UHGV virus genome: UHGV-0225709
Reading direction: 5' to 3' (one strand)
DNA length: 10,210 nt
From: a virus
Positions 1 to 10,210 of the stretch are shown here, piece after piece. A program made the position numbers and the translations under genes. The notes below the pieces were generated by a model. It was not told where the DNA came from and did not search any database. It worked only from the letters and a program-made list of their open reading frames with translations. Position 1 is the first letter of the stretch. Every line of letters starts with the position of its first letter.

Positions 1-369
1 TTTTGTCATGACATCAACCCAATTCTTAATACCAGGAATCTCGGTTACTGGACAACTCATATCCCAATAACCAGCCTGTTCCCACGTTAAAACGGGCAAC
101 CGGGCGATGTTGTCACTAATGTAAGGGTACTGATTCAGACGCAGATCATCGGCTTTATCGTGACCGTCCTTTCCATAAAGAATCCATTCAGGAGATTTGG
201 AAAGCAATTTTGACAGTAGATACAAATTCTCACCGTCAGGTTTTGAAGAGCCATTTTCCCATTTTGTTACGGATACACGAGATATGCCGATTGCTTTCGC
301 AACCTGCTGTTGGGTTAATCCAACGTCTTTTCGACGATTCCGAATACGTTCGCTGATAGTGTTTTTCAT
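1..369 (-). CDS. cI: Phage repressor, lambda-cI-like with LexA/S24-type C-terminal domain (partial; the C-terminus lies beyond the window start)
   Basis: Reverse-strand reading frame is open from ATG (complement of 367-369) to the window edge, 123 codons with no stop. The translation begins MKNTISERIRNRRKDVGLTQQQVAKAIGISRVSVTKWENG, a typical XRE/Cro-C1 helix-turn-helix. It continues ...RLPVLTWEQAGYWDMS..., which resembles the lambda cI hinge around its Ala-Gly RecA-stimulated autocleavage site. Absent from the ORF track because it is truncated. Divergent from the downstream cro-like gene. Confidence 0.8.
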   Translation of the reverse strand, partial: MKNTISERIRNRRKDVGLTQQQVAKAIGISRVSVTKWENGSSKPDGENLYLLSKLLSKSPEWILYGKDGHDKADDLRLNQYPYISDNIARLPVLTWEQAGYWDMSCPVTEIPGIKNWVDVMTK

Positions 370-460
370 GTAACCAATGTTACTACCAAGTGATGTTGCT
401 ATGGTTGACATTGTTATGTAACTATTGTTACCCTTTTGCTCGAAATAACAGGAGAGTTTT
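370..460. promoter_or_regulatory. Divergent immunity promoter/operator region between repressor and cro-like gene
   Basis: A 91 bp non-coding gap lies between divergent regulator genes. Two copies of the 14 bp dyad GTAAC-N4-GTTAC occur at 370-383 (gtaaccaatgttac) and 418-431 (gtaactattgttac). A TTGACA hexamer sits at 405-410. The SD ggagag at 444-449 precedes ATG 461. I could not pair the -35 with a convincing -10. Confidence 0.55.
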
Positions 461-676
461 ATGTTCAAAGATGATGTTCTGCGCTATTTCAAAAAAAAGC
501 GACTAGTAGCTGAGGCTCTTGGAATTTCACATGTGGCTGTTGTGCGGTGGAAAGCAGTTATTCCCAAACTTCGCGCAATGGAACTGGATGAAATTACTAA
601 CGGTGAATTGAAATACAACCCAGAACTTTACAAGAAGCAGGATAGCACCTCAAACGAAGGAAAGAATGATTCATGA
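461..676 (+). CDS. cro: Cro-like small DNA-binding regulator (HTH)
   Basis: 71-aa ORF with SD ggagag 12 nt upstream. The motif KKRLVAEALGISHVAVVRWKA is a classic Cro/C1-type HTH. Position immediately divergent from the repressor gene. The stop overlaps the next start (ATGA at 673-676). Confidence 0.75.
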   Translation: MFKDDVLRYFKKKRLVAEALGISHVAVVRWKAVIPKLRAMELDEITNGELKYNPELYKKQDSTSNEGKNDS

Positions 677-1098
677 AAATCAAGCATGAACACATCCGCA
701 TGGCGATGAATGTCTGGGCGCATCCGGACGGCGAAAAAGTACCGGCTGCGAAAATTACCAAAGCGTATTTCGAGCTGGGAATGACGTTCCCGGAACTGTA
801 TGACGACAGCCATCCGGAAGCCCTGGCCCGTAATACCCAGAAAATTTTCCGCTGGGTAGAGAAAGACACCCCTGATGCAGTTGAAAAAATTCAGGCGTTG
901 TTACCAGCGATCGAAAAGGCAATGCCACCTTTGCTGGTGGCCAGAATGCGCAGCCACAGTTCAGCTTATTTTCGGGAGCTGGTGGAGACGCGGGAGCGAC
1001 TGGTGAGAGACGCTGATGATTTTGTCGCAGTGGCAATCGCCGGTTTCAATCAGATGAACCGTGGTGGCCCGGCAGGAAATGCTGTGGCAGTACATTGA
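673..1098 (+). CDS. CII-like phage regulatory protein (YdaT/CP76-like by recollection); function inferred from position
   Basis: 141-aa ORF translationally coupled to the cro-like gene by an ATGA overlap, with SD aaggaaag at 657-664. The product (MKIKHEHIRMAMNVW...) resembles, from memory, the protein encoded after cro-like ydaS in Rac-type prophages. Family assignment not verified. Confidence 0.55.
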   Translation: MKIKHEHIRMAMNVWAHPDGEKVPAAKITKAYFELGMTFPELYDDSHPEALARNTQKIFRWVEKDTPDAVEKIQALLPAIEKAMPPLLVARMRSHSSAYFRELVETRERLVRDADDFVAVAIAGFNQMNRGGPAGNAVAVH

Positions 1099-3895: not shown

Positions 3896-3931
3896 GGACC
3901 CAGCAAATATACACAACCTATAAAACACTAA

Positions 3932-3956
3932 AGCGCCTCAGGGGCGCTTTTTGTTT
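3932..3956 (+). terminator. Rho-independent terminator closing the rightward early/cargo operon
   Basis: Stem agcgcc (3932-3937), loop tcagg, stem ggcgct (3943-3948), followed by tttttgttt. Confidence 0.75.
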
Positions 3957-3982
3957 GCACAAAAGTGCACAAATTTGCACAA
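3956..3982. repeat. Three direct TGCACAA repeats at exactly 10 bp phasing, followed by a T7 tract
   Basis: TGCACAA at 3956-3962, 3966-3972 and 3976-3982. Helical phasing puts the sites on one DNA face. Candidate protein-binding array (small terminase/cosB-like or a regulator). Confidence 0.5.
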
Positions 3983-4052
3983 TTTTTTTGAACGACTTTT
4001 TACCCTTCCGGCCCGCATGGCGGCTGGATCCGTCAAGGATCCGTGCGTGCAC

Positions 4053-4076
4053 AAAAAAACGCGCTTTTTCTGCGCG
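4053..4076 (-). terminator. Candidate Rho-independent terminator for leftward transcription (short stem)
   Basis: On the minus strand: CGCGC-agaaaaa-GCGCG followed by TTTTTTT (plus-strand aaaaaaa at 4053-4059). The stem is only 5 bp, so moderate confidence. Convergent with the plus-strand terminator at 3932-3956. Confidence 0.45.
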
Positions 4077-4353
4077 CAGGTGACGGGGGAACAGCCCGCG
4101 TTTCAGGGGGTAAATAGCATTCCCTGAACGATGTCGCAGAGATACAACAGAATGGCTGTATTTCTCACGCTGAGCGTGAAAAAGACGTGAGGGCTTTTGA
4201 TTTGATGGGGTGAAAGGTAAGGCCGTCAAAATCGCACTGAGACGGCGAGAACATGCAGTCAACGCGGTGGGATTGCGTAAGAGTCTGACTGTCGATGATG
4301 GCAATCAGCAGGAAAGCGTCGTGAAATTATCTGATTGATACAGGAGCTGGAGA

Positions 4354-4382
4354 GCCGGGGCATAAATTTTTTATGCCCCGGC
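4354..4382. other. Inverted repeat / hairpin immediately downstream of the portal gene
   Basis: gccggggcat (4354-4363) pairs with atgccccggc (4373-4382), extendable through flanking A/T. Lies 25 nt past the Q-like stop. No clear U-tract on either strand. Confidence 0.45.
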
Positions 4383-4406
4383 GAAGCAGCAGACAAGCGA
4401 AGCGCG

Positions 4407-5453
4407 TCAGGATGTGGGCTGGGTGTCTAACAGTGCGTAAGGGTTAAAGCGGATCACCTTTTCGCCAAGCCAGTCATTGATGTGCTTCATGGCCTCCATG
4501 ACGGGCATCAGTTCGTTAATTGCGTAAACCCGCGCGGCCTTCTCCACATCACCAAACGCACTTTTTTCGCCCGGCATCGCCCCCATCAGTTGCGGCGGAA
4601 CGCGGTGCGCAGCCAGCACATCATCACGGGATGCCGCCTTAACATTCATGAACTCATCCTTTGCGGTGATCTGCTGGAACGGCAAAATTTGCACCCCCTC
4701 TTTGCCCCCGTTGGGCGCATGAATGAGCACGTTTTTAAACGCACCGCCACCACGCGCACCCTGTAACGTTTCTTTCAGGGAGTCCATGCTTTCGCGGTTT
4801 ACCTGCGCTGCACCGATGTAGATGATGCACCCGGCATGGGATCCGTTGTCGTAATACAGTTTTCTGAACATGTCCGCCGAATGAGACAGGCTGGCCGAGA
4901 GTAATGCGCCAAGATATTCCGGCATGCCGTAGATTTCCTGGTTAATGTCAGGATTCATCAGGTGGCACACTTTGCCTGGGCGAAACTGAAACGCATCCTT
5001 ACCATCCTGCACATACCACCATGATTCAAGATCGCTTCCGCGTCGCATGTATTTCGCTAGGGCGTGCCGTAATTTAAGCGGTTCGCCGAGCATATTGCTT
5101 CGAAGCTCAAGGAATGCGTTACCGAACACAAACCAGTCCAGCGCCAGCGCCGAGAAATCCTGCCGGGAAAGCAGCGGGTGCGGGATGTAGCAACCGAGTA
5201 ATACATTGCGCTTAAAGTAAAGCGCAGACTGATGCCAGGACGTTTGCCGGGCAGCTCTTGCCAGACCGTACCAGTCCACCGGTGTTTCATACCACCGCCC
5301 GTTATCAGCACAGTACATATTGTCCAGCAAATCATGCCCGGTCAGGCGATAAGGACCATCAAATGTGAATGCACTGAGCGATGATTCTTTCCTGAGCGCA
5401 TCAGCGAGATCAATGCGTGAACTCATGCGCACTTTTTTATTTTTTCTGCTCAT
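4407..5453 (-). CDS. Q: Portal protein, P2 gpQ-like
   Basis: 348-aa ORF on the minus strand with SD GGAG 5 nt upstream of its ATG (complement of 5451-5453). Size and position (adjacent to and co-oriented with large terminase, next to the cos region) match P2 Q. The start overlaps the terminase stop (ATGA). Confidence 0.8.
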   Translation of the reverse strand: MSRKNKKVRMSSRIDLADALRKESSLSAFTFDGPYRLTGHDLLDNMYCADNGRWYETPVDWYGLARAARQTSWHQSALYFKRNVLLGCYIPHPLLSRQDFSALALDWFVFGNAFLELRSNMLGEPLKLRHALAKYMRRGSDLESWWYVQDGKDAFQFRPGKVCHLMNPDINQEIYGMPEYLGALLSASLSHSADMFRKLYYDNGSHAGCIIYIGAAQVNRESMDSLKETLQGARGGGAFKNVLIHAPNGGKEGVQILPFQQITAKDEFMNVKAASRDDVLAAHRVPPQLMGAMPGEKSAFGDVEKAARVYAINELMPVMEAMKHINDWLGEKVIRFNPYALLDTQPTS

Positions 5454-7204
5454 CAGAACTCCATAACCGTGAAACGCTCGTTTTCTCCTTCGCCGCCAAT
5501 TGGTTCGTTAATGACAGCAAGCATGGTTGCCCACGCAAGGTCGCCGTGGCTGATCCCCCTCGCGCGGTCCGTTTCGTAAGTGATAAAGCCGCCCGGTGTT
5601 TTCACCTTACGCACGGCGTTAAAGGCTGCGACCAGCTCGCGTTCGGCGCGATCGTATTCCCACCGCCCGGCACGCATTATTTGCAGCATTTTCAGTACCA
5701 GCGACCGTTTTGATGACAGCGTGAAGGTGTACGGAATAGCAGCAGGGAAAAACCGTTTCACTATCTGATAAACAGCCTCCCCGTTCCCGCCTGTCACATC
5801 AATGCCGATGTGTTCCACGTTGTAGCGACACGTGAACTCTTCAATGACTCTGGCCTGTTCTTCAAACTCCAGCCCCTGAACGCGTCGCGTCTCCACCGTT
5901 CGAAAACGGCCTCCAGGAACAGCCGGAGGAACCACCACGGACACAGCGCCGCTGTCGCCGTTTCCACTGCTGCCGTTTGCGTCATACCCAATCCATACCG
6001 GACGATTCCCCATCGGGCGGGGAGCAAAAGGTTTCCAGTCTTTCCAGTCGTCGTATCCGTCAACACCGCAGCCAATCAGGATATTCAGGTTAAATGCCGA
6101 TTCCCCTTCGCGGACAAACTCACACATATAGAGATTGAGGAACTCATCTTCGGTGTTTTCATCACGAATTTCGTCGATATCGGTGTGTTTCCAGCCGTGA
6201 TTAACCACATCTTCCAGCGTGACAATTTGCCGCCACGTCCGGTCAGGGCAGATAAGCCCGTTATGCAGCGTTTTCCAGTCCACAGAAAAACGCTGGCGTT
6301 TATGCGAGGCCTTTTTCTCGTTCCAGCGGTCGCCGTTCCAGTAGGCGTATGCCTCGTGCGTTTCGGTGGATGGCGTGGAAAAGTAGGTGCGCCGCAGTCC
6401 GCTGAGGGTTGCCATAGCGCCAGCCACCTTGCGCAGTTCAGCAAAGCGACTGACCCAGAAAAATTCATCAAAATAAAAATTGCCCGTATAGGACTGTGCC
6501 GACGCAGCAGAAGTGCCGAGAAAATGCAGCTCTGCGCCGTTGGAGAGGATGATTTTATCGCCCCCTTTCAGCTCCACATCAACTTCAGCCGCGGCCTTCT
6601 GAATAATGCTTTTAAACTGGAACGCCTGACGACGCGACGCAGACAAAAAAATCTGGTTACGCTGGTAAGGTTGCGCCACATCGTCACGCAGCGCCATCAG
6701 CAGAGCTTCCTGTGCAAAATACCAGGTCGCCCCAATCTGTCGGGATTTCAGGATCATCCTGTTACGTATCCCGGCTTCCCTGCAAAGGGTCAGGGTGTCA
6801 AACCAGCCCCGCTGATGCCACTCCAGCCTGCTGATGATTTTTTCCCGCAGTGCGGCAATCTGTTCCGGCGTGAAATGATTTTTGAGTTTTTTCGCCCGGC
6901 CTTTCTTTCCTGCGGCCGTCACATCCGGCTGGCCATCATGCAGCTTTTTAAGCTGCCGGGTCAGCAGGTCTATTTCCTTAAAGTCACCGCCTGTTTTATT
7001 CTGTTTTTCAGTAAGCTGGATGAGGCGCGCATCGATGGACTGCGTGACACGCTGCACGGGTGGCGTTTCATCCCACTGGTCGCGTTTTTTCCACGCATAA
7101 ATCGTGTTCGGGTTTATTCCCATCAGACGTGATATTTCTGCGGGCGGATAACCCTGCCAGTAAAGTTGCCGCGCACGCTGGCGCACAAAAGCGTCCTGAA
7201 TCAT
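5453..7204 (-). CDS. P: Terminase large (ATPase) subunit, P2 gpP-like
   Basis: 583-aa ORF. Contains a P-loop-like KSRQIGAT motif and acidic nuclease-domain-like segments. Length and position match P2 P (about 590 aa). SD agggggag upstream of the ATG (complement of 7202-7204). Confidence 0.85.
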   Translation of the reverse strand: MIQDAFVRQRARQLYWQGYPPAEISRLMGINPNTIYAWKKRDQWDETPPVQRVTQSIDARLIQLTEKQNKTGGDFKEIDLLTRQLKKLHDGQPDVTAAGKKGRAKKLKNHFTPEQIAALREKIISRLEWHQRGWFDTLTLCREAGIRNRMILKSRQIGATWYFAQEALLMALRDDVAQPYQRNQIFLSASRRQAFQFKSIIQKAAAEVDVELKGGDKIILSNGAELHFLGTSAASAQSYTGNFYFDEFFWVSRFAELRKVAGAMATLSGLRRTYFSTPSTETHEAYAYWNGDRWNEKKASHKRQRFSVDWKTLHNGLICPDRTWRQIVTLEDVVNHGWKHTDIDEIRDENTEDEFLNLYMCEFVREGESAFNLNILIGCGVDGYDDWKDWKPFAPRPMGNRPVWIGYDANGSSGNGDSGAVSVVVPPAVPGGRFRTVETRRVQGLEFEEQARVIEEFTCRYNVEHIGIDVTGGNGEAVYQIVKRFFPAAIPYTFTLSSKRSLVLKMLQIMRAGRWEYDRAERELVAAFNAVRKVKTPGGFITYETDRARGISHGDLAWATMLAVINEPIGGEGENERFTVMEF

Positions 7205-7358
7205 TGCTCCCCCTGAGTAATTACAGGAAGATTACCCGCGCGCGAAACCGTTCTCCTTAACCCCCTGTTCTGGCCGTTTTCTTACAACAAAAGCCCTTTG
7301 TATCAGCCTGTTACGCTTTGCCATCATGACTGAAGAACCAGTCAGAGGGGCAAAAACT
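7205..7358. promoter_or_regulatory. Divergent intergenic region between the P-like and O-like genes; expected location of divergent late promoters
   Basis: 154 bp non-coding gap between divergently transcribed packaging/head operons, as in P2 (P_P and P_O). I could not find convincing sigma70 -35/-10 pairs nor an exact TGT-N12-ACA dyad (only TGT-N15-ACA at 7266-7286). An 8 bp palindrome gtaattac lies at 7217-7224. Confidence 0.5.
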
Positions 7359-8195
7359 ATGGCTAATGAAAAAAAGACATCCCGCAAAAAGTTTCGCGTG
7401 GCTGTCTCCGGATCAACTGTTGATGGCCGCGAAATCAGCCCGGTACATCTGCGTGAAGCCGCCGAGAACTTCAACCCGGATGTTTACGCTGCCCGCGTGA
7501 ACGTTGAGCACTATCTCTCGCCATGCCCGTCAAGCGAATTTTCCGCAATGGGCGATGTCACCGCGCTGAGTACGGAAGATATTACGGAAGGCCCGCTGGC
7601 CGGACGTACTGCGCTGTATGCAGAAATCGAACCGACCGAGCGCATGAAGCAGCTTGTCGCTGACGGCAAGAAAATCTATTCCAGTATCGAACTGCACCCG
7701 CAGTTCTCCGTTAACGGGCGCGCCTATCTGGTCGGGCTGGCGATGACCGACACCCCGGCAAGCCTGGGCACTGAGCGCCTGAAATTCACGGCACAGCAGC
7801 GTCAGGCGGTGATGACGTTCAACAGTATTCAGGGTGAAGCACCGCTTATCTCCGAAGCCATCGAGTCTGAAATCATCGAAATGGCAGAACAACGCCAGGA
7901 AGAAGGCACCCAGTGGTTTAACCGCGTAATGGGGATTATTGGTCGTGGCCGCAAAGCGGATGACGCCAGTTTCTCCCGTATTCAGGAAGCGGTGGAAGGC
8001 GTCGCAACGTCACAGGCCGACATTATCGACCGTTTTAATGTGCTGGAAACCCGCCATCAGCAGGACAGCAAGAAAATCACGTCACTGACCACAGAGCTGA
8101 CAGCTCTGACGGAAAAACTGCGCACGCAGGACGGCGATCCGCAGAACCGCTTCACCGCAACGGGCGCAGCCTCCGACCAGCTGGCTGACTTCTGA
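7359..8195 (+). CDS. O: Capsid scaffolding protein, P2 gpO-like
   Basis: ATG 7359 with SD agagggg at 7343-7349 (the track begins at ATG 7326, 11 codons upstream). The segments GSTVDGREISPVHLREAAENFNPDVY and ...GRAYLVGLAMTDTPASLGTERLKF... resemble P2 O as I recall it. Correct size (about 280 aa) and position before the major capsid gene. Confidence 0.8.
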   Translation: MANEKKTSRKKFRVAVSGSTVDGREISPVHLREAAENFNPDVYAARVNVEHYLSPCPSSEFSAMGDVTALSTEDITEGPLAGRTALYAEIEPTERMKQLVADGKKIYSSIELHPQFSVNGRAYLVGLAMTDTPASLGTERLKFTAQQRQAVMTFNSIQGEAPLISEAIESEIIEMAEQRQEEGTQWFNRVMGIIGRGRKADDASFSRIQEAVEGVATSQADIIDRFNVLETRHQQDSKKITSLTTELTALTEKLRTQDGDPQNRFTATGAASDQLADF

Positions 8196-8218
8196 TAAGA
8201 CAAAGGAGCAAATTTTTT

Positions 8219-9271
8219 ATGAATCTGGTGATGTCAGATATTACCCGCAACAAGCTGGGTTGCTATATGGCGCAGCAGGCGTCGCTTAACAATATCCCGG
8301 TATCTGCACTGGTATCGCGATTTACCGTGGAACCCGCGGTGCAGCAGCGTTTTGAAAACGCCTCAAAGGAAAGTACCGAATTTACGAAAAGAATTAACGT
8401 GATCGGCGTGACCGACCAGAAAGGCGAAAAAATCCTCCTGGACACCACCGGGCCAATTGCGCGCACGAATAGCAGTTATGACGGCATCAAACGCCGTAAC
8501 CCGAATAACGTGATCGATATGAACTCTCGTCAGTACCAGTGCGAACAGGTGAACTACGATACCTTTATTTCGTACCCACAGCTTGATACCTGGGCGGCCC
8601 ACAGCGATTTTCAGTCCCGTATCAGTACACAGATCGCCCGGCAGGTAGCGCTTGATCGCATCATGATTGGCTTTAACGGCACATCCCACGCCTACGAGTC
8701 TGATTTTCACACCAACAAGCTGCTTCAGGACGTTAACGTGGGCTGGCTGGAGCACATCAGAACCGATGCCAGCGAGCGCGTAATGAATGACGTGACGCTG
8801 ACCTCCCGCAACATGGACAACACTGTGGCGCACGCGGGTAAGTATGCGAATGCCGATGCTCTGGTACAGGATGCGCGCTCATCCCTGCTGGATGAATGGC
8901 ACAAGGAAGCTGACGACCTTGTGGTGATTATGGGGCGCAACCTGTTTAACTCGCTGCGTCTGCCCGTACTGAACAGCATCAGCGGCCAGAATCCCAATGC
9001 GGAATTACTTGCCGGGCAGCTCATCCTGTCATCGCGCACCATTGGCGGGCTGGGCGTGTTCCTTGCGCCGTTCTTCCCGGATGCAACGATGCTGATCACC
9101 TCGTTCAACAACCTGTCGATTTACTGGCAGAAAGGTTCAATGCGTCGCCTGATGAAAGACGAGCCGGAATACAACCGCATCGCCACCTACCAGTCCATCA
9201 ATGACGCTTATGTCGTTGAAGACTATGGCAAGTGCGCGATGGTCACTGGCTTGAAGTTCGCCGACAGCTAA
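8219..9271 (+). CDS. N: Major capsid protein, P2 gpN-like
   Basis: 350-aa ORF with SD aaaggagc at 8203-8210. The segments ...FTVEPAVQQ..., ...IMIGFNGTSHA..., ...VGWLEHIR..., ...DLVVIMGRNL..., ...MLITSFNNLSIYWQ... and ...YVVEDYGKCAMV... match the P2 N family pattern as I recall it. Confidence 0.85.
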   Translation: MNLVMSDITRNKLGCYMAQQASLNNIPVSALVSRFTVEPAVQQRFENASKESTEFTKRINVIGVTDQKGEKILLDTTGPIARTNSSYDGIKRRNPNNVIDMNSRQYQCEQVNYDTFISYPQLDTWAAHSDFQSRISTQIARQVALDRIMIGFNGTSHAYESDFHTNKLLQDVNVGWLEHIRTDASERVMNDVTLTSRNMDNTVAHAGKYANADALVQDARSSLLDEWHKEADDLVVIMGRNLFNSLRLPVLNSISGQNPNAELLAGQLILSSRTIGGLGVFLAPFFPDATMLITSFNNLSIYWQKGSMRRLMKDEPEYNRIATYQSINDAYVVEDYGKCAMVTGLKFADS

Positions 9272-9316
9272 TCAACTCACGGCGGGCATCATGCCCGCCT
9301 GTAACGGAGAGAAAAA

Positions 9317-10117
9317 ATGATTACTCCTGCACAACAACACTGGCAGAACGTGATGGCACAGCGCGCAGGCCGGGCGAATGAAGGTGTGGACCACGCCGCG
9401 CGTACCGCGCATGAAGAGGTGCTGTATCGTCTGCGTCTGGCACAGGCCAGGCTAAAGGGCGTACAGGCCAGAAGCGCGAAAGCCGCCATCAAAAAAGAGT
9501 TGTTGCCGGATTTTTCCGGCTGGATTGAGGGAACGCTGGAAGCTGACGGCGGGCAGCAGGATGAAGTGATTGCCACGCTGATGGTGTGGGCGATTGACTG
9601 TGGCGATCTTCCGCTTGCGCTGCGTATCGGCGCGTATGTGGTCCATCACAACCTCATCATGCCGGATAACTTTGGCCGTACTGCTGCCACGGTACTGACC
9701 GAAGAAATCTGTAATCCGGTACTGACGCAGGCCGGGACGGATGCCGACGCGGATTTGTCCGCCTTTATCGAACCACTGGACACCCTCCGGGAGATTGTCA
9801 CCGACCAGGACATGCCGGACGAAGTGCGCGCCAAATTATGCAAAGCGTGCGCCTTTGCCCGCCGTGGCCTGACCGATGCGGACAGCATGGCCTCATCACT
9901 GAAGCTGCTGCGCGAAGCAATGCACCTGAACCCGAACGCAGGTGTGAAACGCGAGATTGCAACCCTTTCCCGCGCCCTGAAAAAAGCCGATTCCGCAGCC
10001 GCACCAGAAGATGCCAGCACACCGCAGGCGCAGGACGAAAGCAGCAAAAGTAAAAAGACAACGCGGAAGCCTGCAACACGAAAAACCACCGCGACGCAGA
10101 AGGCGAAGCGCGGTTAA
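9317..10117 (+). CDS. M: Terminase small (endonuclease) subunit, P2 gpM-like
   Basis: 266-aa ORF with SD ggagag at 9305-9310. N-terminus MITPAQQHWQNVMAQRA..., ...KKELLPDFSGWIEG... and a basic K/R-rich C-terminal tail are characteristic of P2 M-type small terminases. Gene order O-N-M. Confidence 0.8.
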   Translation: MITPAQQHWQNVMAQRAGRANEGVDHAARTAHEEVLYRLRLAQARLKGVQARSAKAAIKKELLPDFSGWIEGTLEADGGQQDEVIATLMVWAIDCGDLPLALRIGAYVVHHNLIMPDNFGRTAATVLTEEICNPVLTQAGTDADADLSAFIEPLDTLREIVTDQDMPDEVRAKLCKACAFARRGLTDADSMASSLKLLREAMHLNPNAGVKREIATLSRALKKADSAAAPEDASTPQAQDESSKSKKTTRKPATRKTTATQKAKRG

Positions 10118-10132
10118 CGACTGACCCCGTCA

Positions 10133-10204
10133 GCGGGCGGCGTGCGCGGTGTTCCGGTTTGACTCCGTGACCGTTTACACCGCGCACCCACCGCCCGATT
10201 TTTT
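10133..10204 (+). other. Long imperfect inverted repeat followed by a T6 tract between the M-like gene and the next SD (terminator- or attenuator-like)
   Basis: Left arm gcgggcgg-cgtgcgcggtg (10133-10151) pairs with caccgcgcac (10178-10187) and ccgcccg (10191-10197) across a 3 nt bulge. Loop is about 26 nt. tttttt at 10199-10204, then caggag SD at the window edge. Confidence 0.4.
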
Positions 10205-10210
10205 CAGGAG

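What the first reader, a model, noticed from the sequence alone, without database searches (positions are those of the whole stretch)
370..431. Two copies of a 14 bp dyad GTAAC-N4-GTTAC as candidate repressor operators
Identical half-sites with a 4 bp spacer occur twice, 48 bp apart (370-383 and 418-431). One abuts the repressor start codon and one lies near the TTGACA hexamer upstream of the cro-like gene, consistent with an O_R-like bistable switch using a short palindromic operator.
Basis: seen in the sequence. Interest (0 to 1): 0.45.

Follow-up and report, generated by a model that had tools for sequence, protein, structure and literature searches.

The report
P22-type prophage repressor operators
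The two 14-bp dyads are real and are two of three operator sites in an ordinary P22/lambda-style prophage switch, defining the previously undescribed DNA target (GTAAC-N4-GTTAC) of a repressor type common in E. coli and other enterobacteria.

Summary
Both dyads are present exactly as described, at 370-383 and 418-431. They are the only exact GTAAC-N4-GTTAC matches in the window, and no shuffle produced any. They lie between a leftward HTH+S24 repressor gene and a rightward P22-Cro-type gene followed by a YdaT (CII-equivalent) gene.

In 28 loci found through the repressor protein (42-100% identity, more than 15 genera), the intergenic region aligns without gaps as O1, 9 bp, O2, 11 bp, O3, ATG. 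The half-sites are far more conserved than the spacers or third codon positions.

Further dyads flank a PL-like promoter just beyond the repressor gene, outside this window. The 9/11-bp scaffold matches P22 OR1-3. Both proteins' closest helix-turn-helix matches among solved structures are P22 C2 and P22 Cro. A relative with a different recognition helix (mEp390) keeps the scaffold but uses GTAGG/CCTAC.

Verdict: the operator interpretation is supported. This is a new specificity within a known kind of switch. Binding, promoters and start sites remain inferred. RefSeq's repressor start (411) is probably wrong, and 369 is the conserved start.

The parts
370..383 (.). O3 (OR3-like operator), GTAACCAATGTTAC. 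It has perfect 5+5 half-sites, directly abuts the repressor ATG, and contains the candidate -10 of the maintenance promoter.
   Evidence: The site is in the same register in all 28 protein-derived loci, with half-site information of 1.90 bits. P22 OR3 sits in the equivalent place.
395..408 (.). O2 (OR2-like operator), degenerate. It reads GTTGCTATGGTTGA on the + strand, or TCAACCATAGCAAC in repressor sense, matching 6 of 10 half-site positions. It overlaps the -35 of PR.
   Evidence: On its own this is weak (p about 0.02 for at least 6/10 at one fixed position). It is exactly in register with the 8/10 site CAAACAACAGTTAC of relatives. Family half-site information is 1.54 bits, and the conserved positions AAC...AC are retained here. 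The E. coli variant L150 carries G398A, which improves the site to 7/10.
418..431 (.). O1 (OR1-like operator), GTAACTATTGTTAC. It has perfect half-sites and an all-A/T centre, and it overlaps the spacer and -10 of PR.
   Evidence: Family half-site information is 1.86 bits. The centre-to-centre distance is 23 bp to O2 and 48 bp to O3.
405..410 (+). Candidate PR -35 hexamer, TTGACA.
   Evidence: Read from the sequence. Relatives have TTGCTA or TTGACA at the same place. The same -35 / operator / TACnTT layout occurs at the PL-like promoters. The consensus promoter scan did not call it because the -10 is weak.
426..434 (+). Candidate PR extended -10, TGtTACCCT (TG at 426-427, hexamer 429-434, 18-bp spacer). 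TAC is the last three bases of O1.
   Evidence: This is an inference. The three bases after O1 (CTT in relatives, CCT here) are highly conserved. The PL-like promoters use TACCTT or TACATT in the same relation to OL1. No start-site data exist.
377..382 (-). Candidate -10 (TAACAT) of the maintenance, PRM-like promoter, lying inside O3. The predicted start is at or 1 nt before A369, giving a leaderless repressor mRNA.
   Evidence: This is an inference. No Shine-Dalgarno sequence can fit, because O3 abuts the ATG in every relative. The T, A and final T of the hexamer are kept in all O3 variants. P22 has TAAGAT at the same operator positions.
1..369 (-). N-terminal 123 codons of the immunity repressor (HTH_3 domain plus linker). 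The rest of the gene, including the S24 domain, lies left of the window.
   Evidence: Pfam HTH_3 at 1.3e-17. The full gene is in L001. The best helix-turn-helix match among solved structures is the P22 C2 N-terminal domain, E=1.4e-12, ungapped.
461..676 (+). cro-like gene (71 aa) with GGAG at 451-454.
   Evidence: Pfam P22_Cro at 2.9e-16. The solved P22 Cro structure 1rzs matches at E=9e-12 over residues 1-59. A homologue with a conserved helix-turn-helix (ALGISH.AV..W) lies divergent from the repressor in 26 of 28 loci.
673..1098 (+). YdaT-family gene, the CII equivalent.
   Evidence: Pfam YdaT_toxin at 7.4e-10. Its role as a CII equivalent is taken from PMC9986795 and PMC8630535.
666..683 (.). 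Candidate YdaT operator, ATGATTCATGAAAATCAA, at the cro/ydaT junction. This would be a PRE-like control site.
   Evidence: It differs by one mismatch from the footprinted CP-933P YdaT site TTGATT-N6-AATCAA, which lies at the same junction (PMC9986795). Chance expectation is 0.05 per window. Bases 667-700 are 100% identical in thousands of E. coli prophages with other immunity types.

Best explanation
The dyads are the outer two (O3 at 370-383, O1 at 418-431) of three operators of a P22-type right operator. A weaker O2 lies at 395-408. Dimers of the leftward-encoded HTH+S24 repressor, and of the rightward-encoded P22-type Cro, are inferred to bind GTAAC-N4-GTTAC through the conserved recognition helices (repressor SRVSVTKWE, Cro SHVAVVRW). 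As in P22, they probably do not contact the A/T-rich central 4 bp. Repressor at O1 and O2 would cover the -10 and -35 of PR (TTGACA, 18 bp, TGtTACCCT) and so silence cro, ydaT and the replication genes. O3 overlaps the -10 (TAACAT) and start of a leaderless repressor transcript, so occupancy of O3 by Cro or by excess repressor would shut off repressor synthesis. A second operator set, about 75-120 bp beyond the repressor stop and outside this window, controls a PL-like promoter that reads into ydfA-C, dicF and dicB. What is shown: the sites, their significance, their register, their family-wide conservation, their confinement to OR and OL zones, their co-occurrence with the conserved helices, and the shared P22 scaffold. 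What is inferred: actual binding, the order of affinities, the promoters and start sites, any activation from O2, and bistability.
For: The two exact dyads are the only ones in the window, and no shuffle gave any. The repressor is HTH_3 plus S24, the neighbouring gene is P22_Cro and the next is YdaT.

Twenty genome loci and eight metagenome loci, found through the protein alone, align without gaps as O1, 9 bp, O2, 11 bp, O3, ATG. Half-site information is 1.86 bits for O1, 1.54 for O2 and 1.90 for O3. By comparison, the O2-O3 spacer has 0.41 bits, the upstream 25 nt 0.54, and third codon positions 0.72. The recognition helix is invariant in repressors of 42-100% identity, and the Cro helix-turn-helix is conserved.

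In the 20 genome loci (about 104 kb) there are 67 dyads with at most 1 mismatch, where about 3 are expected. All but one lie in the OR zone or in an OL zone after the repressor terminator, flanking a TTGAC(A/C/T), 17 bp, TAC(C/A)TT promoter.

The ORF starting at the ATG carries RVSVTKWE in 119 of them and RVTITKWE in the other.

P22 OR1-3 have the same 9/11-bp spacers, and P22 OR3 is next to the c2 ATG. The closest helix-turn-helix matches among solved structures are the P22 C2 N-terminal domain and P22 Cro.

Specificity controls: mEp390 (helix NRVTVTGWE) has the same scaffold with GTAGG/CCTAC; P22 has no GTAAC dyads; ZF40 (helix SRVTITKWE) has two perfect GTAAC dyads 48 bp apart plus an OL site. 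The central 4 bp are A/T-rich, which fits P22 repressor's preference (PMC4267663). E. coli variants differ at 398, 435, 436 and 439 but never in O1 or O3.
Against: There is no experimental binding, footprint or start-site evidence for this immunity type, and no paper in the searchable library contains the motif. The sigma-70 consensus scan called no promoter in 200-700. Both proposed -10 hexamers are weak: TACCCT matches 3/6 plus an upstream TG, and TAACAT matches 4/6. O2 in this particular window matches only 6/10. If the maintenance transcript starts at A369, O2 is centred near -32.5 rather than lambda's -42, so lambda-style activation from O2 cannot be assumed. Each operator overlaps a promoter element, so part of the conservation could come from promoter constraint. 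The repressor of this lineage has Ala at the catalytic Ser position, so the switch may not be SOS-inducible.
Confidence: 0.88

Rival explanations
1. The operator is bipartite in this prophage. Only the two perfect dyads are functional, and 395-408 is merely the decayed remnant of an ancestral O2, now conserved only as the PR -35 region.
For: O2 matches just 6/10 here, and that match alone has p about 0.02-0.06. Its promoter-proximal end coincides with TTGACA. Natural operators with fewer sites are known from established knowledge; for example, 933W OL has two.
Against: The positions kept here (AAC...AC) are exactly the family-invariant ones. Polymorphism in E. coli moves O2 toward consensus: G398A, and the variants TCAACCATAGTAAC and ...GTGAC. 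The register is strictly preserved in every relative and in P22 and mEp390. In lambda and P22 a weak OR2 is normally filled by cooperativity.
Confidence: 0.15
2. The dyads are conserved as promoter elements or as the target of another factor (YdaT or a host protein), not as repressor/Cro operators.
For: Each site overlaps a predicted -10 or -35 element. A YdaT gene lies next door.
Against: Both half-sites are conserved symmetrically, including the promoter-distal ones that lie outside any hexamer. The known YdaT target is TTGATT-N6-AATCAA, and a near-perfect copy sits elsewhere, at 666-683. The Hamiltonella loci keep the dyads without a YdaT gene. The motif changes when the repressor helix changes, as in mEp390 and P22.
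Confidence: 0.03
3. The dyads are a chance palindrome pair, or an RNA hairpin or terminator-like signal.
For: The stems are short (5 bp), and short two-copy repeats are often chance.
Against: None of 200 shuffles gave even one exact match. The motif is conserved across more than 15 genera in fixed register. A 5-bp stem with a 4-nt loop and no T-run is not a terminator, and the sites lie upstream of both genes.
Confidence: 0.01

Closest known systems
Salmonella phage P22 immunity region (c2 repressor, cro, OR1-OR2-OR3)
   Same: Both have a divergent repressor (HTH plus S24) and a P22-type Cro. Both have three dyads with a 14-bp core, a 4-bp centre and core-to-core spacers of 9 and 11 bp (centre distances 23 and 25 bp). 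OR3 lies next to the repressor ATG, with a -10-like hexamer at operator positions 2-7. The N-terminal domain aligns ungapped with the P22 C2 N-terminal domain, and the Cro aligns with P22 Cro. The centre is A/T-rich, which fits P22 repressor's indirect readout (PMC4267663).
   Different: The half-site is GTAAC/GTTAC instead of TTAAG/CTTAA, so core positions 1 and 5 differ. The recognition helix is SRVSVTKWE instead of SNVAISQWE. O3 abuts the ATG directly, whereas P22 has 2 bp between. The repressor is only 36% identical overall. The gene after cro is a YdaT-type CII equivalent, not P22 c1.
Phage lambda OR (cI, cro, OR1-3, PR/PRM) and OL
   Same: The logic is the same: three operators between divergent repressor and cro genes, centre distances of about 23-25 bp, a leaderless repressor mRNA, and a second operator set at a leftward early promoter. 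The S24 domain aligns with lambda CI, and the QAG cleavage site and the Lys are conserved.
   Different: Lambda has 17-bp sites of unrelated sequence. The N-terminal domains share no specific similarity beyond the fold. In lambda, OR2 is centred at -42 of PRM; here O2 is predicted near -32.5. The OL sites here are about 32-35 bp apart rather than about 24 bp.
CP-933P / Rac-type modules (PaaR2 or RacR, YdaS, YdaT)
   Same: The gene order is the same: repressor, then a divergent Cro-like gene, then YdaT. The repressor gene is leaderless. A YdaT operator lies at the cro/ydaT junction (PMC8630535, PMC9986795).
   Different: The CP-933P repeats have the consensus GTTTAGTAA, and four 18-bp palindromes were reported there. 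PaaR2 and RacR lack the S24 domain. The Cro here is P22_Cro rather than YdaS (weak YdaS hit only).
Phage 434 OR (14-bp ACAA-N6-TTGT operators)
   Same: Both use short 14-bp dyads with conserved outer bases and a variable, uncontacted centre. The HTH_3 fold is shared (E=3.7e-5).
   Different: The half-site and the centre length differ (N6 against N4), and the sequence relationship is much more distant.
Uncharacterised relatives: coliphage mEp390 and Pectobacterium phage ZF40
   Same: mEp390 has the identical 14-9-14-11-14-ATG scaffold. ZF40 has the same GTAAC-N4-GTTAC dyads 48 bp apart plus an OL site.
   Different: mEp390 uses GTAGG/CCTAC with helix NRVTVTGWE. No operator study of either phage was found.

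Membership tests
Lambdoid (lambda/P22-type) immunity switch, OR region | A divergently transcribed repressor (N-terminal HTH, C-terminal S24/LexA-like domain) and a small Cro gene | tested here: met
   Pfam HTH_3. The full-length protein aligns with lambda CI over its S24 domain. P22_Cro at 2.9e-16 and 1rzs at 9e-12.
Lambdoid (lambda/P22-type) immunity switch, OR region | Three related dyad operators in the intergenic region, about 2.2-2.4 helical turns apart | tested here: met
   O1 is at 418-431, O2 at 395-408 and O3 at 370-383, with centre distances of 23 and 25 bp. The register is conserved in 28 loci. O2 is weak in this window (6/10).
Lambdoid (lambda/P22-type) immunity switch, OR region | Operators overlap PR (O1/O2) and the maintenance promoter (O3) | tested here: inconclusive
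   TTGACA, 18 bp, TGtTACCCT and TAACAT are placed as expected and are conserved. The consensus scan called no promoter, and no start-site data exist.
Lambdoid (lambda/P22-type) immunity switch, OR region | A second operator cluster (OL) at a leftward early promoter beyond the repressor gene | tested here: met
   L001 5607-5620 is a perfect dyad and 5639-5652 is a 7/10 site, flanking TTGACT, 17 bp, TACCTT. This lies 381-394 bp left of the window start. Eighteen of the 20 genome loci show the same arrangement.
Lambdoid (lambda/P22-type) immunity switch, OR region | Sequence-specific binding of both repressor and Cro to the operators, and bistability | not testable with these tools
   Only indirect evidence is available: the motif co-varies with the recognition helix.
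Lambdoid (lambda/P22-type) immunity switch, OR region | RecA-stimulated self-cleavage (Ala-Gly site and Ser/Lys dyad) | tested here: not met
   The QAG site and the Lys (TLKK) are present, but the catalytic Ser position is Ala (VEGDAMT) in this lineage. Most relatives have G[DE]SMT there. The residue lies outside the window (L001:5959-5961). This bears on inducibility, not on operator function.
P22 C2 / P22 Cro subfamily | The N-terminal domain and Cro are homologous to P22 C2 and P22 Cro | tested here: met
   The full-length repressor is 36% identical to P22 c2.
P22 C2 / P22 Cro subfamily | Operator geometry: symmetric site with a 4-bp uncontacted centre, 9/11-bp inter-core spacers, and OR3 adjacent to the repressor ATG | tested here: met
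   Direct comparison with the P22 sequence in L029. Contact information comes from PMC4267663.
P22 immunity specificity (imm P22/21) | Same half-site (ATTTAAG) and recognition helix, giving homoimmunity | tested here: not met
   The half-site is GTAAC and the helix is SRVSVTKWE. P22 has no GTAAC dyad. This is therefore a distinct immunity type.

The most novel reading that the evidence does not exclude
This clade of P22-like repressors keeps a rigid operator scaffold (14-9-14-11-14-ATG) while swapping only two half-site positions together with two or three recognition-helix residues. The pairs seen are P22 SNVAISQ with TTAAG, mEp390 NRVTVTG with GTAGG, and this type SRVSVTK with GTAAC. That makes it a natural specificity-swap series from which a recognition code could be read. 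In the E. coli lineage of this window, the repressor has also lost its catalytic serine. The switch would then be a locked, non-SOS-inducible silencer of dicB and other toxic early genes, kept in about 13% of complete E. coli genomes.
Probability: 0.35. Interest if true: 0.5.

Novelty: new member of a known kind. Interest (0 to 1): 0.3.

Why it matters
The result gives the operator motif, site map and corrected gene start for an immunity type found in 702 of 5,426 complete E. coli genomes and in prophages of many Enterobacterales. No published operator for this type was found. In practice it allows three things: prediction of homo- and hetero-immunity among these prophages; correction of a systematic RefSeq start-codon error, in which translated operator and promoter DNA is read as 'MST...NIGY'; and use of a compact, orthogonal repressor/operator pair on the well-understood P22 scaffold for specificity studies or synthetic circuits. 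It does not change the understanding of how lambdoid switches work.

Tried and rejected
1. DNA search of GenBank phages with window 1-700 found no close relative of the repressor/operator region, only short YdaT-junction and CI-fragment hits. A 74-nt operator query found just five unstudied phages.

2. The consensus sigma-70 scan of 200-700 returned no promoter. Promoters were therefore assigned by hand from conservation and are marked as inferred.

3. I considered YdaT as the dyad-binding protein and rejected it. Its footprinted motif differs and is found at 666-683 instead.

4. I considered the PGAP start at 411 and rejected it. Sixty-eight related loci have an in-frame stop at that codon, and many others have no upstream in-frame ATG. 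The 219-aa homologues start at the conserved MK.

5. An Rfam search of the window, L001 and two relatives found only sok and DicF in L001. Nothing matched at the operators or in the conserved stretch after PL.

6. Literature searches for the exact operator strings, for the GTAAC/GTTAC motif, and for ZF40 operators found nothing relevant. A search for the P22 PRM start site found no usable source, so the P22 promoter comparison rests on the sequence alone.

7. Alternative -10 candidates for PR (TATTGT at 423-428, TTACCC) were rejected for wrong spacing or lack of conservation in relatives.

Full report
**Observation**

The window reads GTAACCAATGTTAC at 370-383 and GTAACTATTGTTAC at 418-431. 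These are the only exact matches to GTAAC-N4-GTTAC in the 10,210 bases. None appeared in 200 dinucleotide-preserving shuffles. Relaxing to 2 mismatches adds five scattered sites that look like background: 7 found against 2.25 expected. A minus-strand ATG lies at 369-367, immediately next to dyad 1. TTGACA lies at 405-410, just left of dyad 2.

**Gene context**

- Reading leftward from 369, the ORF has an HTH_3 domain (1.3e-17).
- The complete gene is recovered from a 100%-identical E. coli chromosome (L001). There it continues into an S24/LexA-like domain and is annotated 'LexA family protein'.
- Reading rightward, 461-676 encodes a 71-aa P22_Cro-family protein (2.9e-16).
- 673-1098 encodes a YdaT-family protein, the CII equivalent described in PMC9986795. 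A replisome organiser follows.
- At least 80% of window 1-700 is found, at 98-100% identity in the records sampled, in 702 of 5,426 complete E. coli genomes.

This is the immunity region of a common E. coli lambdoid prophage.

**Start codon**

RefSeq starts the repressor at an in-frame ATG at 411-409, giving 238 aa. That start would bury dyad 1 in coding sequence. Three results argue against it:

- Homologues of 42-46% identity are 219 aa long and begin at the MK that corresponds to 369.
- In 68 related loci an in-frame stop occupies codon -14, exactly where this window has the upstream ATG. Many other loci have no upstream in-frame ATG at all.
- The only 'conserved' residues of the extension are translated regulatory DNA. 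'MST' comes from the PR -35/O2 region and 'NIGY' comes from O3.

The conserved start is 369, so dyad 1 does abut the start codon.

**Comparative test**

The repressor alignment shows the recognition helix SRVSVTKWE invariant from 100% down to 42% identity. I collected 20 loci from different species using protein patterns. They include Yersinia, Buttiauxella, Kluyvera, Erwinia, Rahnella, Edwardsiella, Kosakonia, Klebsiella, Arsenophonus and Celerinatantimonas. Eight more came from closer homologues.

In all of them the upstream DNA aligns without a single gap as: O1 (14 bp), 9 bp, O2 (14 bp), 11 bp, O3 (14 bp), ATG.

| Region | Information content (bits per column, 26 distinct sequences) |
|---|---|
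| O1 half-sites | 1.86 |
| O2 half-sites | 1.54 |
| O3 half-sites | 1.90 |
| O2-O3 spacer | 0.41 |
| 25 nt beyond O1 | 0.54 |
| Third codon positions, start of repressor gene | 0.72 |

The dyads are therefore conserved far above the neutral level.

In this window O2 is 395-408. It reads TCAACCATAGCAAC in repressor sense and matches 6 of 10 half-site positions. In most relatives it reads CAAACAACAGTTAC (8/10). The positions kept here (AAC...AC) are the ones invariant in the family. An E. coli variant carries G398A, which improves O2, while O1 and O3 never vary among the E. coli copies examined.

**Distribution of the motif**

In the 20 genome loci (about 104 kb) there are 67 dyads with at most 1 mismatch, where about 3 are expected. 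All but one fall in one of two places:

- the OR zone; or
- a zone shortly after the repressor terminator, where one to three dyads about 32-35 bp apart flank a TTGAC(A/C/T), 17 bp, TAC(C/A)TT promoter that reads away from the repressor gene.

In L001 this OL/PL-like region has a perfect dyad at 5607-5620 and a 7/10 site at 5639-5652. It lies 381-394 bp to the left of the window and reads toward ydfA-C, dicF and dicB.

I also ran the converse test, a pure DNA-pattern scan of IMG/VR for the tripartite layout. The ORF starting at the ATG carries RVSVTKWE in 119 of them and RVTITKWE in the remaining one. Motif and repressor family imply each other.

**Relation to known systems**

The N-terminal domain's best helix-turn-helix match among solved structures is the P22 C2 N-terminal domain (2r1j/1adr, E about 1.4e-12, ungapped). 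The top hit overall is full-length lambda CI (3bdn), through the S24 domain. The Cro's only hit is P22 Cro (1rzs, 9e-12).

Reading the P22 sequence itself (L029) shows:

- OR1, OR2 and OR3 cores (TAAAG-AACA-CTTAA, TAAAG-GAAT-CTTTA, TTAAG-ATGA-CTTAA) are separated by the same 9 and 11 bp.
- OR3 ends 2 bp before the c2 ATG.
- A -10-like TAAGAT occupies the same operator positions as TAACAT does here.

P22 repressor is reported to bind 18-bp symmetric sites without contacting the central four base pairs, and to prefer A/T-rich centres (PMC4267663). The centres here are AATA (O1), CATA (O2) and ATTG (O3).

Specificity controls:

| Phage | Recognition helix | Scaffold | Half-sites |
|---|---|---|---|
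| mEp390 (42% identical repressor) | NRVTVTGWE | 14-9-14-11-14-ATG | GTAGG/CCTAC; no GTAAC dyads |
| P22 | SNVAISQWE | same 9/11 spacers | TTAAG/CTTAA; no GTAAC dyads |
| ZF40 | SRVTITKWE | dyads 48 bp apart, plus an OL site | two perfect GTAAC-N4-GTTAC dyads |

The half-site tracks the recognition helix on a fixed scaffold.

By contrast, the CP-933P module that shares the YdaS/YdaT layout uses different repeats (GTTTAGTAA) and a repressor without an S24 domain (PMC8630535).

**Mechanism**

The steps below are inferred unless marked otherwise.

- **PR.** The -35 TTGACA (405-410) overlaps O2 by 4 bp. An 18-bp spacer follows, and then an extended -10, TGtTACCCT (426-434). Its TAC is the end of O1.
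- **Support for PR.** The three bases after O1 are strongly conserved. The PL-like promoters are built the same way on OL1. The predicted start is near 441-443, followed by GGAG at 451-454 and the cro ATG at 461.
- **Repression of PR.** Repressor at O1 and O2 would occlude PR.
- **Maintenance promoter.** Because O3 abuts the ATG in every relative, there is no room for a Shine-Dalgarno sequence. The conserved TAACAT (382 to 377, minus strand) sits 6-7 nt from A369. This predicts a leaderless mRNA, as is known for lambda cI and paaR2 (PMC8630535).
- **Autoregulation.** Occupancy of O3 by Cro or by excess repressor would then turn off repressor synthesis.

Three caveats apply. The consensus scan called no promoter. 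Both -10 hexamers are weak. With a start at 369, O2 is centred near -32.5 rather than lambda's -42, so activation from O2 is not assumed.

**Literature**

No paper in the searchable library contains the operator strings or the motif in a phage context. ZF40 papers deal with Aca2, not with cI. Only five GenBank phage records carry this operator region, and none of them appeared in the literature searches I ran.

**Verdict**

This is a new immunity specificity within a thoroughly known kind of switch. It is useful for annotation and immunity prediction but not mechanistically surprising. Interest is 0.3.

**Other observations**

- A near-perfect YdaT operator lies at 666-683.
- The catalytic Ser of the S24 domain is replaced by Ala in this repressor lineage.
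- The lambdoid early region is joined to a P2-like late gene block from about 4400 onward.
- A conserved non-coding stretch lies downstream of PL in relatives and has no Rfam match.

Noticed in passing
window 666-683: ATGATTCATGAAAATCAA, at the cro stop / ydaT start overlap, differs by one base from the footprinted CP-933P YdaT operator TTGATT-N6-AATCAA, which lies at the same gene junction. It is a likely PRE-like control site for repressor establishment. Chance expectation is 0.05 per window. Bases 667-700 are 100% identical in thousands of E. coli prophages that carry other immunity types.
   Followed up: partly
L001:5959-5961 (39-41 bp left of window position 1; same gene as window 1-369): The repressor of this lineage has Ala where S24/LexA-type repressors have the catalytic Ser (VEGDAMT here; G[DE]SMT in most relatives; lambda GNS149MT). 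This holds in L001 and in 37 IMG/VR loci of the window type (38 loci in all). The QAG cleavage site and the catalytic Lys are retained. The repressor is probably not self-cleaving, so the prophage may not be SOS-inducible.
   Followed up: partly
window 367-411: RefSeq/PGAP annotates the repressor (WP_000103686.1 and relatives, 238 aa) from the ATG at 411-409. The 14 extra codons are translated operator and promoter DNA ('MST' from TTGACAT, 'NIGY' from O3). Relatives have an in-frame stop at that codon. This looks like a systematic start-codon mis-annotation.
   Followed up: yes
window about 3900-10210: From 4407 onward the window carries a P2-type late gene block in the classic Q-P / O-N-M arrangement. 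It comprises portal at 4407-5453 (-), large terminase at 5453-7204 (-), GPO scaffold at 7326-8195 (+), P2-family capsid at 8219-9271 (+) and small terminase at 9317-10117 (+). This block is joined directly to the lambdoid early region. L001 continues differently (DUF551, hokD, DUF968). The same DUF4014-portal junction occurs in E. coli UMNF18 and other strains. It is either a mosaic or a P2-like prophage inserted into or next to a truncated lambdoid prophage.
   Followed up: partly
L003-L021, about 100-190 nt after the repressor stop (for example L016 3300-3375); weaker in L001 5440-5560: A stretch of about 70 nt immediately downstream of the PL-like promoter is conserved across genera (…CAGCGAACAGGCAGGACGCCCACGAAGTAGCCGCC..GGCGTATGAAG..GGATGATTCGC). 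It is non-coding in appearance and has no Rfam match. It could be a nutL/put-like antitermination element or a leader RNA.
   Followed up: partly
L001 3843-3894 and 11073-11248: DicF sRNA and the sok antitoxin RNA (with hokD) are present in the same prophage, along with dicB and ydfC. The OL/PL-controlled leftward operon is therefore the Qin-like dicB cell-division-inhibitor operon, here placed under an S24-type repressor instead of DicA.
   Followed up: no
L153 (mEp390) 455-597: Coliphage mEp390 has three dyads, GTAGGATATCTTAC, TCAAGGATTCCTAC and GTAGGATTGCCTAC, with the same 9/11-bp spacers, and O3 abuts the cI ATG. This appears to be another undescribed immunity specificity on the P22 scaffold.
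   Followed up: partly
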